Position numbers and translations under genes: made by a program. The notes under the pieces were generated by a model that was not told the origin of the DNA, ran no database searches, and saw nothing but the letters and a program-made list of their open reading frames with translations. A DNA stretch of 32,000 bases from Candidatus Helarchaeota ASGARD archaeon Hel_GB_B (GTDB taxonomy: Archaea > Asgardarchaeota > Lokiarchaeia > Helarchaeales > HEL-GB-B): contig SUPR01000012.1 in assembly GCA_005191425.1 (NCBI GenBank), positions 18,981 to 50,980 of the forward strand, in the 5' to 3' direction. Below are positions 25,901 to 31,388 of the stretch, one piece after another. Within the stretch, counting starts at the first letter, position 1; each line of letters starts with the position of its first letter.

Positions 25901-26067
25901 GTTGGAAATGTTTTATCAAGTTGTGCCATTCTACCGCCAATAGAGGGAGATTTTTCTACAAGATAAACCCTAAAACCAGAATTAGCAAGGTCAAGTGATG
26001 CTTGCATTCCTGCAACGCCGCCACCTATGACCATTGCAGCTCCAATTCTTTCATCAAATTTACTCAT
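22936..26067 (-). CDS. hdrA: Large HdrA-like flavoprotein (two FAD-type domains, internal 'N-terminal' module), all-Cys form
   Basis: GGGVAG, TFPTNDCSLCILAPK, CKGCGKC, YCSSVCC, internal IGVMVCHCGINIG and ASCTPRTHE, second GGGISG, C-terminal 2x[4Fe-4S]. Confidence 0.93.
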   Translation of the reverse strand: MSKFDERIGAAMVIGGGVAGMQASLDLANSGFRVYLVEKSPSIGGRMAQLDKTFPTNDCSLCILAPKMVEVFRHPNIELLTYHEVVKVDGDVGNFEVTVLKKPRYVDETKCKGCGKCAMKCPAQKLLKIPDEFNMGLQTRGAIYIPFPQAVPPVYLIDPENCLKLTKDKCGACEKQCDIGAINYDMKPEYRKIKVGAIVAVTGFDQFDPGRIPRYGYQYPNVVTGLEFERIMCASGPYQGEILRPSDKTHPHRIAFVSCVGSRSATEGVPYCSSVCCMYIAKECMITKEHAPSTECVVFKSDVRAYGKGFNEFIQRAQNEYGVKYIDGRVSFIEEDPETQDLIIHAENMKTGESITYRANLVVLATALIPSEGSQELAKILGIEFDHRGFYKELSELNPSETNRPGIFICGYGQAPKDIPESVADASSAAGKVAELLAPVRGTLAKEMTFEEPEKEVLPEDEPRIGVMVCHCGINIGGIVRVKEVVENIKKLPNVVICEDNLYSCSSDSQERIKELIKEYNLNRFIVASCTPRTHEPLFALTCREAGLNPYLFELVNIRDQCSWVHMQEPEAATQKAIDLIRMTVAKSRKLKPLKQGEVSVIKKALIIGGGISGMSAALSVANEGFEAFIIEREPELGGIMKNLYRIFPSMDDAEALLQELKQKIETHPKIKVLTNTTLSKVSGYVGNFQIEAQQGDQVHHIEVGTVIVASGGKELKPDGLFGYGKYPNVITQMDLEKKLKENSLGNIKSVVMILCVSARQNDGEYTYCSKICCGTSIKNAYLIKKSNPDIDVTILYRDIQMAGKSSEEFYREVRQNVLFTRYTLDKLPKVSKKGDKLLIEFFNMLTQSNTSIETDLLVLTTPMVPHEDAEEISQFLKVPVMRGIPPFFLEAHVKLRPLDFATDGVFLCGAAQWPKSIEECVSQASGAAARACQLLARGKIITVGTTMIIDEAKCIGCGRCAEVCPYSAIERYVVEKTFENVILQEEKSRIIQAMCKGCGTCSVECPVDAITARHFTTDQLNSMIDAYLLENEEIKLGEIKNE

Positions 26068-27226
26068 TTAATAACCCCATTGCTTTTGCTACTAATGTAA
26101 TAATATCTTCAACTTCTACATTAATACGTTCTAATTCAGAACTTTTTTTCTCAGATAATGTGCAATTAAAATGGATTTGACATTTAGAGCAAGTAGTAAT
26201 TAAGCAACCCGCTGTTCTCTCGGCTTCTTTTAAGCGGTCGACCCGGATTGCTTTTGAATAATCATTACAATAATTAAAAGCACTTACTCCACAGCATTGT
26301 GAATTTTCTCTAATTCGTTCCATTTCTTTAAAAACAACTCCAACTTCTTTTAAAGCTTTTAAAATTTTTCGCGGAGCCTCATATTCACCCATATGTCTAC
26401 CAAGCCTACAAGGGTCATGATAAGTAACAGTTTTTTCAATTTTTTCTTTAAATTTCAAATTCCCTTTCTCTAATTCTTCTGCCATAAATTGTGTTATATG
26501 TTGAACTTTAAAAGGAAGTTCCCCGAATAATTCGCGATAATCTAATGCTAAAGTCCGATAATCTTCAGCACATGAAGTAATTACTAATCTAATGCCTGAT
26601 TTTTCAATATAATCAATGTTATATTTGGCCAATTTTTTAAAAGTTTCATAATCACCTTGCCAAAGAACATCGTGTCCACTGGGTTTTGCCTTGTCCAAAA
26701 GTACTAATGGTTTTTCTAAAAGATTGTCCAGTATTAATATAGCACTTTTAATTATTTTAGCAAAATCCATTCCTATATCATCAAAATAAGCGCCAAGAAT
26801 TGGAAGTACACCAGGAAAATACCCGACTTCACCTTTATCAGCAAGTCTAACCCCACTTGGGATATATTCTTCCGGAAAATTCGGGACTATACCATCCCTT
26901 GATAAAATATTTGAAACATTTGAAACAAAACAATCATGCGCTTCTTCTACTCTAAACCCTTGTTTGAATAATTCAATTCGTGCAGAACGTATAAATTCTC
27001 CGAAATTTACATTTTGGGGACACTTTTGCAGACAATAATTACAAGTTAGACACGCTAACAAATTATTCTTTTTTAGAATTTCTGTTGGATTGGGATTAGT
27101 TAGGAAATCGAAAATTATCTCACGAGGTGAAAAAGGTTGGTTGTAAGATACCGGACAACAACCTGAACATGTCCCGCATTGATAGCAGTAACTAACTTGT
27201 TTTTTTAAATCAAAACTAAGACTCAT
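26060..27226 (-). CDS. HdrD-like protein: HdrC-type ferredoxin plus CCG domains (first CCG degenerate)
   Basis: CYQCGTCSGCC, CLTCNYCLQKCP; YHDPCRLGRH, CCG, CSKC. Confidence 0.85.
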   Translation of the reverse strand: MSLSFDLKKQVSYCYQCGTCSGCCPVSYNQPFSPREIIFDFLTNPNPTEILKKNNLLACLTCNYCLQKCPQNVNFGEFIRSARIELFKQGFRVEEAHDCFVSNVSNILSRDGIVPNFPEEYIPSGVRLADKGEVGYFPGVLPILGAYFDDIGMDFAKIIKSAILILDNLLEKPLVLLDKAKPSGHDVLWQGDYETFKKLAKYNIDYIEKSGIRLVITSCAEDYRTLALDYRELFGELPFKVQHITQFMAEELEKGNLKFKEKIEKTVTYHDPCRLGRHMGEYEAPRKILKALKEVGVVFKEMERIRENSQCCGVSAFNYCNDYSKAIRVDRLKEAERTAGCLITTCSKCQIHFNCTLSEKKSSELERINVEVEDIITLVAKAMGLLNE

Positions 27227-28746
27227 TTTTCCTCGACCTTTATAATATTTTTAAGTGAGTTATAATAATAAAGGGGCGCCTTATCAATAATTTTAGAAAT
27301 GCTTTTGAAATTTCGAGTTCTTTTTCCTTTCGCAAGTTTTTCTATCAGTGGTATTCCAAAAGGTTTATCGCTAGGTATTTCCTTTACTTGAAAATAGTTT
27401 TCTTGGAGTGCCTCAGTATATAATTTTTCCCCTTTTTCGGTACGGACCACTACAGTAGACCATCCTGGACCTGAGCCTATAGAACCACAAGATATATCTG
27501 ATAATTCATTAGTAAGGTCAACGCAATAATGACATGCTGTGCGTGCTAAAGAAGTTACTTCTTTTATTGGTACTTCAACTGGTTCTTTATCTAAATTATA
27601 AACATAGAATTTCCCTTTATTAATGTCCATTTTTGATACATTATTAATAGGTGTTTTACATATTTCTTCTGAAATTTTTACCACGTTGTTATATGCAAAA
27701 GTTTCCATACAAAATATTCCAATGACATATTCAATAGAACCCCAAATTTTATTGTAAATGTTCGAAAAAACTTGATATTTTCGCATGGCTTGAATTTGAC
27801 AAGGTGTACCTACAAAAGCCAATTTTTTAATTCCAAGTTCTTGAGCAGTATTTAAAGCATCAAAAGTAGGTGCTACTGCATATTTAGTACCTGCTGTTTC
27901 TAAAAGCGCTTCAAAGTTTTTCACAATAACTGGCATTGTATTCCAGGAATTTTTTGCTCTTTTTACTACAACAGCTCCGTCAATAGATTTTTTATCAAAT
28001 AAATATTTTAAAAAAGTAGTAACCATTCCACCATCTTGGCAGACTTCTTTTATTTTTGTATCTTGTGTTTGTGCTGATTTTAATATTCTGTAAGGGCCAA
28101 ATGGCTGGCTATTTAGATCTGAATAAAGATTATATTTTTCTCCAGTAGTATATTCTTTTAGCAAATTTAAAGGTAGAAAGGTCCTTGGGCAATGGAAATT
28201 ACATAGACCACAATGAATACATTTCGATTCATCAATTATTGGTCCGTTATCTTTAATTTCAATTGCACCTACAGGGCATATAGCTTTGCAGGCACCGCAC
28301 ATACAACATAAATCATTTTCTACAATTATGTTAATTGGATCATAGACCGATCGTATACTCCATGGGCTTATTAAGTCCATTGATAAATTTTGCTCATCAT
28401 GTGTCAAAAATAACTTGACACCGTATATCATATTATCAATGTCTCTTAACTCAATCCATCTTTCATTTTGAAGGAGAATTATATTTTTGGAAACAATGAA
28501 TTCCGGAAGATCTAAAGCCTTGCTCAATTCTGGAATAGATGCCGATCCCTTTAATAAAATATATAATAATATACGATATTTATCTATTTCAGAAAGCATT
28601 AATTTATCTAATATTGAATCAACATCATCGGGATGTAATTTTTTCGCATCTTCAATATCAGTTTTATTTTCAAGAAGTGCTCTAACAAACAAACTTCCTG
28701 CATAAGCTTCAGTAGTTGCATTTAACAATTCTTTTGAGATATTCGT
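27223..28746 (-). CDS. wHTH-ferredoxin-FrhB/FdhB (F420 hydrogenase/dehydrogenase beta) fusion; start ACG 28746 or TTG 28728
   Basis: CCMCGAC and CIHCGLC ferredoxin; QDGGMVT, VGTPCQI, GIFCME, ACHYCVD and DISCGSIG FrhB motifs; N-terminal SIPELSKALDLPEFIVSKNI helix-turn-helix pattern. Confidence 0.88.
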   Translation of the reverse strand, partial: TNISKELLNATTEAYAGSLFVRALLENKTDIEDAKKLHPDDVDSILDKLMLSEIDKYRILLYILLKGSASIPELSKALDLPEFIVSKNIILLQNERWIELRDIDNMIYGVKLFLTHDEQNLSMDLISPWSIRSVYDPINIIVENDLCCMCGACKAICPVGAIEIKDNGPIIDESKCIHCGLCNFHCPRTFLPLNLLKEYTTGEKYNLYSDLNSQPFGPYRILKSAQTQDTKIKEVCQDGGMVTTFLKYLFDKKSIDGAVVVKRAKNSWNTMPVIVKNFEALLETAGTKYAVAPTFDALNTAQELGIKKLAFVGTPCQIQAMRKYQVFSNIYNKIWGSIEYVIGIFCMETFAYNNVVKISEEICKTPINNVSKMDINKGKFYVYNLDKEPVEVPIKEVTSLARTACHYCVDLTNELSDISCGSIGSGPGWSTVVVRTEKGEKLYTEALQENYFQVKEIPSDKPFGIPLIEKLAKGKRTRNFKSISKIIDKAPLYYYNSLKNIIKVEEK

Positions 28747-28789
28747 TTCTAATTACCTCCATTACATAAGAGGGTTTTTAATAATTTGT

Positions 28790-28867
28790 AATTATTTACC
28801 CTTCGCATTTAAGGGTTGTCCTCTCGAACCTTAAATTTTTATTGTTCGAGGATCATTCCAAATAATT
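28790..28867 (-). ncRNA. SECIS-like cis-element 3' of vhuD
   Basis: AUGA(28856-53) UC CUCGAAC / A-rich 14-nt loop / GUUCGAG AG GAC, then hairpin ACCCUU-AAAUGCG-AAGGGU, enclosed by AAUUAUUU/AAAUAAUU. Confidence 0.75.
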
Positions 28868-29274
28868 TAATAACGAAGCGGATTTGGGCCGACTCTTTTT
28901 AATTTTTCCATTGTATCTTTAATGGATTCAAGAAATACATTGAATTCAGCAGCACCACATTCATATAAATTTAACCTGCTTTCTCCAAGGGTTAATTCGT
29001 CTAATAGTCGCTTTACAAATTTTATTCGATTTAATGCTTTAATATTTCCATTTATAAAATCACATTCGCCAATATGTCAAGAAATGACCATAACGGCATC
29101 TGCACCCATTCTAAATGCGTGTAATATGTGATATGCATCAACTCGACCTGTACATCTTACTCTGATAATTCGGACATCTGTTGGATATTTATTTCTGGTC
29201 ACACCTGCCAAGTCAGCCGCACCATAACCTCATTTATTACATGCGAATGCTACAATCTTATATTTCTCATTCAT
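28867..29274 (-). CDS. vhuD: Selenoprotein VhuD/MvhD with two Sec (U15, U66); missing from the ORF track
   Basis: MNEKYKIVAFACNK-U-GYGAADLAG...RCTGRV...GADAVMVIS-U-HIGECDF...GPNPLRY*. TGA at 29230-29232 and 29077-29079 align with Cys in CNWC and GCHIGDC of the paralog at 22530..22943. Confidence 0.92.
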
Positions 29275-29324
29275 TTTATTTTCCTTTTTTAAATTTTTTA
29301 ATTATATTTAATTATAATTTAATA

Positions 29325-29397
29325 ACGCCTGTCGGGACGCAATTCCCTATCTCAATAATGAACTGATATTTTTTCATTATTGTCATCAAATAGGCGT
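29325..29397 (-). ncRNA. SECIS-like cis-element 3' of Sec-hdrA
   Basis: AUGA(29386-83) CAAUAAUGAA / AAAAUAUCAG / UUCAUUAUUG A GAU, then hairpin GGGA-AUUGCG-UCCC, enclosed by ACGCCU/AGGCGU. Confidence 0.78.
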
Positions 29398-31350
29398 TTA
29401 TTTTATTAAGGCGTCAATTTCATTCATTATTTGTTCATCTCTGTAATATCTAAATGTTATTGCTCTTACAGGACAACTTGCGGCACAAACTCCACAACCT
29501 TTGCACTTTATTACATCTATTTGTGCTATTCCATCATCGCCAACTTTAATTGCGCTAAACGAGCAATTTCGTTCACAAGTTCCACAACCTATACATAAAT
29601 CTTTGTCGACAATAGGGTTGATGAGTTCCAATCTGAATTTTCCTGAAGATACAAAATCAATCGCCATTGCTGCTGCAGCTCTTGCTGTTGAAACTGTATA
29701 AGGTACTGCCATTGGATTTCTACAAGCACCACCGATATAAACGCCACTTGCTTTAGTTTCGACCGGACTTAAACAAGTGTGTATCTCTTTTATAAATCCA
29801 GACGGTGATAAGTCCAAACCTAATATACTGACAATTTCTTTTGCTTTTGGATGAGGTACCATTGCAGTAGATAATACTACTAGATCAAATTCATCTTTAA
29901 TAATCCTATGACCTATAATGTCCTCGCCCCGTAAAATTAGATTTCGCGTCTCTGGATCTTCTTTAACTTCGGCAATTTTACCTTTAATGAATTTTATTTG
30001 TGGGTTTTCACCTCTAATTCTACTGTAATATTCTTCTTCGTCCTTAGAAGTCGTCCTTATATCTATATAAAAAATATAGACCTCAATATCACCATATTCT
30101 TGGACTAAAAGCTGGGCATTCTTCATGGCGACAAGACAACATACTCCACCTGAACAATAAGCATTAGTTTTTAAATCACGTGAACCAACACACTGTATCA
30201 TTGCAATTTTTTTAGGGGTCTTACCATCAGATACTCTTTTTAAATGTCCACCAGTTGGTCCAGTTGGATTAATAAGACGTTCGAGTTCAATCTGAGTTAA
30301 TACATTATAATATTTACCATATCCATAATCACCGCGTTTTGAAGCATCGTAAACTTCATACCCAACCGTAATAACAATTGCGCCAACTTCAATGTCTTCA
30401 TAAGTCGGTTTCATATCATAATCAACAGCTTCGGCTAAACAATTTTTTTGGCATTGCTTACACTTAATACATGCATCTATGTCAATATACGCTTTTTTAG
30501 GTACTGCATTAGGATGAATTATATTAATAGCTTTTCTAGTACCAAGTCCATAATTGAATTCATTAGGTACCAAAACCGGACATATTTCCATACACCTTCC
30601 ACAACCAGTACATTTTTCCCAATCGACATATGTTGGTTTATGTTCAATAGTTACTTTATATTGACCCGCACTTCCACTGATATTTTTTATTTCACAATAG
30701 GTACGTAATTCGATATTTGGATGTTTTGAAGCCTCGACCATTTTCGGTGCTAAAATTCATATAGCGCAATCATCAGTCGGAAATGTCCGGTCTAATTGTG
30801 CCATCTTTCCGCCGATACTAGGTAAAGAATCCAACAAATAAGTTTTAAAGCCAGCATTCGCAGTAGCTAATGCTGCACTAATTCCTGCAATTCCTGCACC
30901 AATAATTAAGACTTCTTTTATTACTTCCATCTCTTTTAATGGGACATCATCTAATATAGAAGCACGTTCAACACCAGCTTCAATCAATGCTTTTGCTTTC
31001 TCAGTTGCTTCTTCATTTGTAGATGGATTAACAAAAGATACTTGCTCTCTCAGATTCACCATTTGAAAATAATATTGGCTTAGACCTGCTGATTCTAATA
31101 ATGCCCGATATGTAGGTTCGTGTATTTTTGGTGTGCAAGCACCAACAACAACTCTATTTAAGTTATGGTTAATAATATCTTCTGCAATCATTTGTTGCCC
31201 AGGCTCTGAGCACATAAAAGAAAAACTCTTGGATAAGACGACATTTGGTAGTGTTTTTGCGTATTCTGCAACTGCCTCAACATCTACTACACCGCCGATA
31301 TTAACGCCTCATGCACAAACGTAAACTCCAATGCGAATTTCTTCTGACAC
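29398..31350 (-). CDS. hdrA: Selenoprotein HdrA (650 aa) with two Sec (U14, U198); split into two ORFs by the track
   Basis: GTG start with GGTG SD. IGVYVCA-U-GVNIGG (TGA 31309-31311) and FPTDDCAI-U-ILAPKMVE (TGA 30757-30759) are in one frame. They align with CHCG and DCSLCILAPK of the Cys paralog. Canonical HdrA length and domain order. Confidence 0.92.
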
Positions 31351-31388
31351 ATTAAACACCTTTTTTTATTTTTCACCTCTTAATTATT

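What the first reader, a model, noticed from the sequence alone, without database searches (positions are those of the whole stretch)
29398..31350. HdrA with two selenocysteines, including one in the N-terminal CxC cluster motif
Seen: TGA at codon 14 (VCA-U-G) and codon 198 (DCAI-U-ILAPK). Established: the DCxxC position is the Sec site in methanococcal HdrA and ligates the FAD-proximal cluster, and multi-Sec selenoproteins are reported for Lokiarchaeota, so this may not be new. Inference: U14 places Se on the N-terminal-domain [4Fe-4S] cluster about 1.9 kb upstream of the only candidate SECIS, implying long-range, eukaryote-style recoding.
Basis: partly seen in the sequence, partly recalled or inferred. 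Interest (0 to 1): 0.7.

Follow-up and report, generated by a model that had tools for sequence, protein, structure and literature searches.

The report
Two-selenocysteine HdrA of a Helarchaeales archaeon
This is an intact gene for the redox enzyme subunit HdrA in an Asgard (Helarchaeales) archaeon whose two in-frame UGA "stops" almost certainly encode selenocysteine. That is the usual, already published state of this gene in Asgard archaea, so the finding is correct but ordinary.

Summary
Observation confirmed. Window 29398-31350 (-) is a full-length 650-aa HdrA with TGA at codons 14 and 198 and no other stop.

Both TGAs sit on conserved Cys positions (CxCG and DCxxC). All four Sec-type hdrA paralogs of this genome carry both TGAs, and its three Cys-type paralogs have Cys at both sites. 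Of 33 Sec-type Asgard loci, 31 have both TGAs and two have Cys14/Sec198. None has Sec14 without Sec198.

The start at GTG 31350 is supported by synonymous-dominated divergence of codons 1-13 and a conserved start position. SepSecS, EFSec, a PSTK-like gene and a Sec-SelD are present, and TGA is otherwise a normal stop.

Multi-Sec Asgard HdrA, decoded over about 2 kb, was published in 2016. This scan had already found it in two other genomes.

- There are two SECIS-like elements, one after hdrA and one after a hidden two-Sec vhuD.
- By the literature, the codon-198 residue contacts the same N-domain cluster, from the partner subunit.
- Residue 14 looks like a spare Cys rather than a cluster ligand. 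Bathyarchaeia homologs that lost the other three N-domain Cys still keep it.

The parts
29398..31350 (-). hdrA coding sequence, 650 codons plus TAA stop; selenoprotein with Sec14 and Sec198
   Evidence: One search gives the translation. One search gives a full-length match to solved HdrA (9sfi_A 1.9e-211, 5odc_A 1.2e-206). One search gives the Pfam FAD and Fer4 domains.
31348..31361 (-). GTG start codon (31350-31348) preceded by GGTG (31360-31357) with a 6-nt spacer
   Evidence: The start position is shared with the C41 paralog (ATG), Hel_GB_A (ATG) and the same-genus MAG (TTG), each behind GGTG.
31309..31311 (-). TGA codon 14, Sec in the N-domain C-x-U-G motif
   Evidence: Codons 1-13 evolve mostly synonymously.
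30757..30759 (-). TGA codon 198, the canonical HdrA Sec (DCAI-U)
   Evidence: It aligns to X (Sec) of 9sfi_A.
29324..29398 (-). hdrA-proximal SECIS-like three-way junction: outer helix, AUGA at 29386-29383, a 9-10 bp stem with an A-rich loop, 3' AGA, and a second hairpin
   Evidence: MFE -21.5 kcal/mol, z -3.67. The same architecture follows the stop of all four Sec-hdrA paralogs and of 14 of 25 related loci.
28867..29274 (-). vhuD (MvhD/FlpD family), 135 aa, with Sec15 (TGA 29232-29230) and Sec66 (TGA 29079-29077)
   Evidence: Both Sec align to X in M. maripaludis VhuD 9sfi_K. Pfam FlpD 7.5e-43.
28790..28867 (-). vhuD-proximal SECIS-like three-way junction with a canonical AUGA...GA core (AUGA at 28856-28853)
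   Evidence: MFE -18.1 kcal/mol, z -3.43. Paralogous elements follow vhuD on C41 and C167.

Best explanation
The stretch is an intact hdrA gene of a Helarchaeales (Asgard) archaeon. It encodes a 650-aa flavin/iron-sulfur electron-bifurcation subunit. UGA-14 and UGA-198 are decoded as selenocysteine by the archaeal Sec machinery (EFSec plus Sec-tRNA), directed from a distance by SECIS-type RNA in the 3' region. Two such elements are available. One lies directly after the hdrA stop and has a slightly non-canonical AUGA...(A)GA core. The other lies after the next gene, a two-Sec vhuD, and has a canonical AUGA...GA core. Which element serves hdrA is not shown. I infer that the proximal one does, because every Sec-hdrA of this genome has one, including a paralog with no vhuD behind it. 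In the protein, Sec198 is the canonical CxxU residue next to the bifurcating FAD. In the solved methanogen enzyme that residue reaches the N-terminal-domain [4Fe-4S] 'shuttle' cluster of the partner subunit. Sec14 lies in that N-terminal domain. It is most likely not one of the cluster's ligands. I read it as the conserved spare Cys beside the cluster that works with the partner's C195/U198 pair. If so, both selenium atoms sit at one inter-subunit electron-transfer contact. I put about 0.55 on this last point. Shown: the gene, the UGA positions, the Cys/Sec interchange, the machinery and the RNA architecture. Inferred: Sec insertion in vivo, the choice of SECIS and the role of Sec14.
For: Gene identity: end-to-end match to solved HdrA chains. 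UGA positions: the same two Cys columns in the four Sec-type paralogs, with Cys/Cys in the three Cys-type paralogs. Among related loci the pattern at residues 12/14/47/72/195/198 is CUCCCU in 28, CUCUCU in 3 and CCCCCU in 2. About 125 of the 150 top phylum-wide matches carry exactly two TGAs within residues 1-240. Start and read-through: codons 1-13 differ from three homologs by 5-6 synonymous versus 1-2 non-synonymous changes, with a conserved start site and GGTG. TGA is an ordinary stop elsewhere, closing 216 of 1,368 long open frames. Machinery: SepSecS at 481.7 bits and EFSec at 276.2 bits, adjacent on contig C9; a PSTK-like gene at 156.3 bits; SelD with an in-frame TGA. SECIS: both elements fold into the same three-way junction, z -3.67 and -3.43. 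All three helices are kept with different sequences in paralogs and in other Asgard families. Every hdrA examined ends in TAA or TAG. Role of residue 14: the N-domain has only four Cys. PMC9012536 reports that the cluster is bound by N-domain Cys plus Cys197 of the other subunit. About 69 Bathyarchaeia homologs have C12->S, C47->W/R/Q and C72->S/T and similar, yet 60 keep Cys14 and all keep C195/C198. Two representatives show the reverse, C12/C47/C72 kept with G at 14. Sec14 was never seen without Sec198.
Against: There is no protein, 75Se or ribosome-profiling evidence. No tRNA-Sec was found in this 94%-complete MAG: the best RF01852 match is 33 bits, and ARAGORN finds only 8 tRNAs in all, so the absence says little. 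No Rfam SECIS family matches either element, even at E up to 10. The hdrA-proximal core reads AUGA...AGA, with an extra A, rather than AUGA...GA. I could not read coordinates of 5ODC, 7BKB or 9SFI, so the ligand-versus-spare status of residue 14 rests on comparative patterns only. In full-length HdrA all four N-domain Cys are almost invariant, which is also what a four-Cys ligand set would look like.
Confidence: 0.85

Rival explanations
1. Sec14 is a direct selenolate ligand of the N-terminal-domain [4Fe-4S] cluster. The gene is still a two-Sec selenoprotein.
For: The N-domain has exactly four Cys positions (12, 14, 47, 72). All four are invariant in 30 full-length homologs and present in about 140 of 150 diverse representatives. 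In cryo-EM states where the partner's Cys pair binds another density (PMC13580544, PMC13518236), a fourth ligand must come from somewhere.
Against: PMC9012536 describes the cluster as bound by N-domain Cys plus Cys197 of the partner, which leaves one N-domain Cys spare. Bathyarchaeia homologs that lost residues 12, 47 and 72 keep Cys14 in 60 of about 69 cases. Two representatives keep 12, 47 and 72 with Gly at 14.
Confidence: 0.3
2. Translation starts at ATG 31215 (Met46), so UGA-14 lies in the 5' leader and only UGA-198 is recoded.
For: ATG 31215 opens the table-11 ORF 30757-31215. A UGA this close to the start is unusual.
Against: Residues 3-45 align to solved HdrA, including the CxCG motif. 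Codons 1-13 and 15-45 evolve mostly synonymously, and the upstream start with GGTG is conserved. A Met46 start would delete two of the four N-domain Cys. The TGA itself is conserved at a Cys column in 31 of 33 Sec-type loci.
Confidence: 0.04
3. The TGAs are true stops (a decayed or split gene) or are read as another residue (Trp, or Cys by near-cognate read-through), not Sec.
For: No tRNA-Sec was detected in the assembly, and there is no expression data.
Against: The frame is otherwise intact over 650 codons at 1e-211 to HdrA. The same two TGAs are conserved across families of the phylum. TGA closes 216 long frames, so the code is not reassigned. The TGAs sit only on Cys columns. The Sec machinery and SECIS-like RNAs are present. 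Codon 198 is an experimentally solved Sec site in M. maripaludis (9sfi, PMC13518236).
Confidence: 0.03

Closest known systems
Multi-Sec HdrA-VhuD gene pairs of Lokiarchaeota (Mariotti et al. 2016, PMC4989117) and the Asgard selenoproteome survey (PMC11227280)
   Same: HdrA has more than one Sec, always including the canonical site near residue 200, and every Sec sits on a conserved Cys. A two-Sec vhuD lies directly downstream on the same strand. The SECIS is eukaryote-like, with AUGA, an A-rich loop and GA. hdrA ends in UAA or UAG. UGAs are decoded up to about 2 kb from the SECIS.
   Different: Those papers describe very short hdrA-vhuD spacers and a single SECIS, behind vhuD, shared by both genes. 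Here a 123-nt spacer holds a second SECIS-like element directly after hdrA. One Sec-hdrA paralog (contig C122) has no vhuD behind it. I could not confirm from the held text that codon 14 is one of their 'five possible positions', because Fig. 3 and the supplement are not held. It is very likely, since every locus of the large Lokiarchaeia family f6 that I examined has it.
HdrA (VhuD-associated, Sec197) of Methanococcus maripaludis, PDB 9sfi (PMC13518236); HdrA of Methanothermococcus, 5odc
   Same: Same length and domain order, full-length alignment, and Sec at the DCxxU position. VhuD has Sec at the same two positions.
   Different: The methanococcal enzyme has Cys, not Sec, at the CxCG position. 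Each methanococcal gene has its own archaeal-type SECIS. The operon context here has FrhB-like, CCG-domain, fused double HdrA and MvhD genes instead of Vhu hydrogenase genes.
Eukaryotic SECIS / lokiSECIS
   Same: Located in the 3' UTR, with an AUGA 5' core, a stem of about 9 bp, an apical loop beginning with an A run, and a GA 3' core in the vhuD element.
   Different: No Rfam SECIS model matches. The elements are embedded in a three-way junction with a closing helix and a second hairpin. The hdrA element has AGA rather than GA.

Membership tests
HdrA (soluble heterodisulfide reductase subunit A, flavin-based electron-bifurcation module) | Full-length similarity to structurally solved HdrA with the same domain order (N-domain, TrxR/FAD domain, inserted ferredoxin, C-terminal ferredoxin) | tested here: met
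   9sfi_A E 1.9e-211, query residues 5-649 to chain residues 4-650. FAD-binding Rossmann domain plus Fer4 domains at 241-304 and 579-634.
HdrA (soluble heterodisulfide reductase subunit A, flavin-based electron-bifurcation module) | Four conserved N-domain Cys (CxCG, FMC, GACTPK) and the DCxxC pair | tested here: met
   C12, U14, C47, C72, C195 and U198, with Sec replacing Cys at residues 14 and 198.
Asgard multi-Sec HdrA-VhuD selenoprotein pair | In-frame UGAs only at conserved Cys columns, including the canonical site near residue 200 | tested here: met
Asgard multi-Sec HdrA-VhuD selenoprotein pair | A two-Sec vhuD directly downstream on the same strand; hdrA stop codon is not UGA | tested here: met
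   The hdrA stop is TAA here and TAA or TAG in all loci listed.
Asgard multi-Sec HdrA-VhuD selenoprotein pair | Very short hdrA-vhuD spacer and one shared SECIS located only behind vhuD | tested here: not met
   A 123-nt spacer carries its own SECIS-like element. The same holds in the paralogs on C41 and C167 and in 14 of 25 related loci. The published layout is seen only in family f6.
Eukaryote-like SECIS (lokiSECIS) | AUGA 5' core, stem of about 9 bp, A-rich apical loop, GA 3' core, position just 3' of the stop | tested here: met
   This row is the vhuD element 28867-28790: AUGA, a 9-position stem with one C.A mismatch, the loop AAUAAAAAUUUAAG, and GA.
Eukaryote-like SECIS (lokiSECIS) | The same features for the hdrA-proximal element | tested here: inconclusive
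   AUGA, a 9-10 bp stem and an A-run loop are present, but the 3' side reads AGA (AAA in the C41 paralog). PMC11227280 reports AUGA_AA variants. No Rfam SECIS model matches.
Archaeal Sec-decoding trait | SepSecS, EFSec/SelB, PSTK and SelD present | tested here: met
   The PSTK-like gene scores 156.3 bits, below the equivalog cut-off of 290.5.
Archaeal Sec-decoding trait | tRNA-Sec gene | tested here: inconclusive
   The best RF01852 match is 33 bits against a cut-off of 47. ARAGORN finds only 8 tRNAs in the whole MAG, so tRNAs are largely unassembled or missed.
Archaeal Sec-decoding trait | Sec actually inserted at UGA-14 and UGA-198 | not testable with these tools
   This needs 75Se labelling or selenopeptide mass spectrometry.

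The most novel reading that the evidence does not exclude
Sec14 of one HdrA subunit and the C195/Sec198 pair of the partner subunit form a single selenium-based redox contact, a transient selenenyl-sulfide or diselenide, or a shared ligand site. This contact would carry electrons between the mobile N-domain 'shuttle' cluster and the bifurcating FAD. Asgard enzymes would then be natural double-selenium versions of the very step that the 2026 cryo-EM papers call unresolved. The Cys14-only Bathyarchaeia homologs would be cluster-free versions of the same relay.
Probability: 0.2. Interest if true: 0.6.

Novelty: new member of a known kind. Interest (0 to 1): 0.3.

Why it matters
As a gene call it matters only for annotation. 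Standard callers split this hdrA into fragments of 152 and 447 aa and miss vhuD entirely, so HdrA and VhuD are undercounted in Helarchaeales metabolic reconstructions.

Two things go modestly beyond that:
- Selenium occupies both partners of one inter-subunit contact. Residue 14 is conserved independently of the other three N-domain Cys. This gives structural biologists a specific residue to inspect in existing HdrA structures when asking how electrons pass between the shuttle cluster, the CxxC pair and FAD.
- Several Asgard lineages keep a separate SECIS behind hdrA. This qualifies the published picture of one SECIS shared by hdrA and vhuD.

Tried and rejected
- Rfam found no family at gathering score over the whole window. 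An E-value scan of 28700-29450 up to E 10 gave only chance snoRNA and sRNA matches and no SECIS model.
- RNAalifold on a MAFFT alignment of 11 hdrA-3' elements recovered only the second hairpin, because the 3' arms of the other helices are aligned one to three columns out of register between families. I therefore did not build a covariance model. I used per-sequence MFE folds and a descriptor scan instead.
- Simple SECIS descriptors are unspecific in this 28% GC genome, giving 276 and 173 hits. Only the G+C-containing hits next to selenoprotein genes are credible.
- I tested the idea that the HdrA N-domain is homologous to MvhD, so that Sec14 would equal VhuD Sec15 (MvhD Cys16). BLASTP gave E 2.3 and hhalign gave probability 26% on an unrelated segment. 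A VIA-align wide fold search with a pLDDT-95 model returned only generic alpha/beta folds, such as lumazine synthase at Z about 10. The equivalence stays an analogy of motif position, not a result.
- tRNA-Sec was not found.
- The first genome-contig scan failed; the repeat worked.
- The supplement of PMC4989117 and the Wagner 2017 Science paper are not held. I could therefore read neither the list of five Sec positions nor the ligand list of the N-domain cluster.

Full report
**Observation.** Reading window 29398-31350 on the minus strand with TGA shown as U gives 650 residues and exactly two in-frame stops, both TGA. They are codon 14 (31311-31309, VCA-U-GVNI) and codon 198 (30759-30757, DCAI-U-ILAPK). 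Table-11 ORF calling breaks the gene into 30757-31215 and 29398-30741. The finding's coordinates and contexts are exact.

**What the gene is.** The read-through product matches solved HdrA chains end to end. The best are 9sfi_A (E 1.9e-211, residues 5-649 to 4-650) and 5odc_A (1.2e-206). It carries the expected FAD and ferredoxin domains. Sec198 aligns to the X (Sec) of the M. maripaludis chain. Sec14 aligns to the second Cys of its CxCG motif.

The closest named relative of the first 240 residues is a contig of Candidatus Helarchaeota Hel_GB_A, at 87% identity. The genome is a 3.54-Mb MAG with 28% GC. The window is therefore from a Helarchaeales archaeon, an order that GTDB places in class Lokiarchaeia.

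**Start codon and read-through of UGA-14.** Three results argue against it.
- GTG 31350 lies 6 nt behind GGTG. The C41 paralog, Hel_GB_A and a same-genus MAG start at the same position (ATG, ATG, TTG) behind GGTG.
- Codons 1-13 differ from these three by 5-6 synonymous against 1-2 non-synonymous changes. Codons 15-45 differ by 13-15 against 5-8.
- This is the pattern of translated sequence on both sides of the TGA.

The genome holds seven full-length HdrA paralogs.
- Four have TGA at both sites (this one, C41, C167, C122).
- Three have Cys at both (C68, C98, C107).

A phylum-wide six-frame search with residues 1-240 matched 384 of 400 genomes. About 125 of the 150 best matches carry exactly two TGAs.

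I aligned 110 fetched loci and read residues 12/14/47/72/195/198. The Asgard Sec-type genes fall into three patterns.
- CUCCCU in 28 loci.
- CUCUCU in 3 loci, with a third Sec at the GACTPK Cys.
- CCCCCU in 2 loci (L018, L033).

Sec14 never occurs without Sec198. So interchange at codon 14 is shown, and the double-Sec form is the common state of Asgard HdrA, not a peculiarity of this window.

**Is UGA recoded generally?** No. TGA closes 216 of 1,368 open frames of at least 300 codons.
- Machinery found: SepSecS (481.7 bits) next to EFSec/SelB (276.2 bits) on contig C9, a PSTK-like gene (156.3 bits), and a SelD with its own in-frame TGA.
- tRNA-Sec was not found. Only 8 tRNAs are detectable in the whole MAG, so the absence is uninformative.

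**SECIS.** Directly behind hdrA lies a 135-aa MvhD-family gene (29274-28867). It is visible only when TGA 29232-29230 and TGA 29079-29077 are read through. Both positions align to the two Sec of M. maripaludis VhuD.

There are two SECIS-like RNAs, not one.
- One starts 2 nt after the hdrA stop (29398-29324; AUGA at 29386-29383).
- The other starts 2 nt after the vhuD stop (28867-28790; AUGA at 28856-28853).

Both fold into the same three-way junction: a closing helix, AUGA in the 5' junction, a 7-10 bp stem with an A-rich loop, and a second hairpin. Their z-scores are -3.67 and -3.43 against dinucleotide shuffles. The vhuD element has the canonical AUGA...GA core. The hdrA element reads AUGA...AGA, and AAA in the C41 paralog. 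PMC11227280 mentions such AUGA_AA variants.

Every Sec-hdrA of this genome has such an element right after its stop. That includes the C122 paralog, which has no vhuD behind it. Fourteen of 25 related loci, from several families, have one within 0-7 nt of the stop, and all three helices are kept with different sequences. The large Lokiarchaeia family f6 has none, with vhuD starting 10-40 nt after hdrA.

UGA-14 is 1,925 nt from the first AUGA and 2,455 nt from the second. Rfam recognises neither element.

**Where the two Sec sit in the protein.**
- The 2026 cryo-EM papers describe this cluster as a mobile 'shuttle'. They describe the DCxxC(U) pair as holding an unidentified density or a selenenyl-sulfide between the clusters and FAD, and they call its role unresolved (PMC13518236, PMC13580544).
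- So both Sec of this protein belong to one inter-subunit contact, not to two separate clusters.

The N-domain has only four Cys positions (12, 14, 47, 72). If three of them plus Cys197' bind the cluster, one is spare. Comparative data point to residue 14 as the spare one.
- About 69 Bathyarchaeia homologs have Ser at 12, Trp/Arg/Gln at 47 and Ser/Thr and similar residues at 72. Yet 60 of them keep Cys14, and all keep C195/C198. I checked this in an explicit alignment.
- Two of 150 diverse representatives keep 12, 47 and 72 with Gly at 14.
- The fused double HdrAs of this genome carry the four N-domain Cys in one half and the CxxC pair only in the other half. This matches action in trans.

I therefore think Sec14 is a relay or partner residue for the CxxU pair rather than a cluster ligand. 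This is inference, at about 0.55. It can be settled by looking at deposited coordinates.

**Context.** The operon continues with four more genes.
- An FrhB-like F420 module (501 aa).
- A ferredoxin plus CCG-domain, HdrC/B-like protein (388 aa).
- A 1,043-aa fused double HdrA, Cys type.
- A Cys-type MvhD.

**Comparison with what is known.** Mariotti et al. 2016 (PMC4989117) reported Lokiarchaeota HdrA genes with up to four Sec at five possible positions. These always include the canonical one, and all lie on conserved Cys. The genes sit in tandem with two-Sec VhuD and are decoded over about 2 kb. PMC11227280 extended the survey across Asgard archaea, Helarchaeales included.

This scan had already followed up the same thing in two other genomes, with the same verdict. 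The present gene is one more member of that kind.

Two things differ from the published description.
- The separate SECIS-like element sits in a 123-nt hdrA-vhuD spacer. The papers describe very short spacers and one shared SECIS.
- One Sec-hdrA paralog has no vhuD neighbour.

I could not verify from the held text that codon 14 is one of the five published positions. Its presence in every f6 locus I examined makes that very likely.

**What led nowhere.** An attempted homology between the HdrA N-domain and MvhD failed by BLASTP, hhalign and fold search. RNAalifold on a MAFFT alignment was defeated by mis-registered helix arms. Expression data could not be obtained.

Noticed in passing
window 29275-29397; L002, L003, L006, L011, L015-L026 (first 0-90 nt after each hdrA stop): Many Asgard lineages (own order, and families f20 and f21) keep a SECIS-type three-way junction directly behind hdrA, in an 80-200 nt spacer before vhuD. 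Only the large Lokiarchaeia family f6 shows the published layout of a short spacer with one SECIS behind vhuD. This qualifies statements in PMC4989117 and PMC11227280.
   Followed up: partly
L006 (own genome C122:6668-8674): A two-Sec hdrA paralog is followed not by vhuD but by a TrxR-only HdrA half. Its only nearby SECIS-like element overlaps its own stop codon (UAG AUGA...).
   Followed up: partly
L057-L124 (Bathyarchaeia contigs): A large clade of Bathyarchaeia HdrA homologs has lost three of the four N-domain Cys (S12, W47, S/T72), so presumably the N-domain cluster too. It keeps Cys14 in about 60 of 69 sequences and the DDCAIC pair in all.
   Followed up: partly
L014, L028, L038 (residue 72); L034 (near residue 300): Additional Sec sites occur in relatives. 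One is at the GACTPK Cys of the N-domain (GAUTPK). Another lies in the inserted ferredoxin domain. Both fit the published 'five positions'.
   Followed up: no
own genome C118:60812-61271 (-): An MvhD/VhuD-like gene behind a fused double HdrA has Sec only at the second site (VG-U-HPGDCEY) and Cys at the first. It is followed by a G+C-containing three-way-junction SECIS.
   Followed up: no
window 26060-27226 (-): The 388-aa protein in the same operon has a ferredoxin domain plus a CCG domain (PF02754), so it is HdrC/B-like. The operon is therefore not entirely without an HdrB-type module, contrary to another first-stage note on this window.
   Followed up: partly
L048 (DATKTP010000045.1): A contig labelled Candidatus Deferrimicrobium sp., a bacterial name, carries a Helarchaeales-type Sec-hdrA that is 85% identical to this one. 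It is probably a mis-binned archaeal contig.
   Followed up: no
own genome, whole assembly: ARAGORN finds only 8 tRNA genes in a 3.54-Mb MAG that is 94% complete. The tRNAs are largely missing from the assembly or escape detection, for example because of introns.
   Followed up: no
own genome C9:6245-8925 and C31:7806-8315: EFSec and SepSecS are adjacent genes. SelD carries an in-frame TGA and runs off the end of its contig.
   Followed up: no
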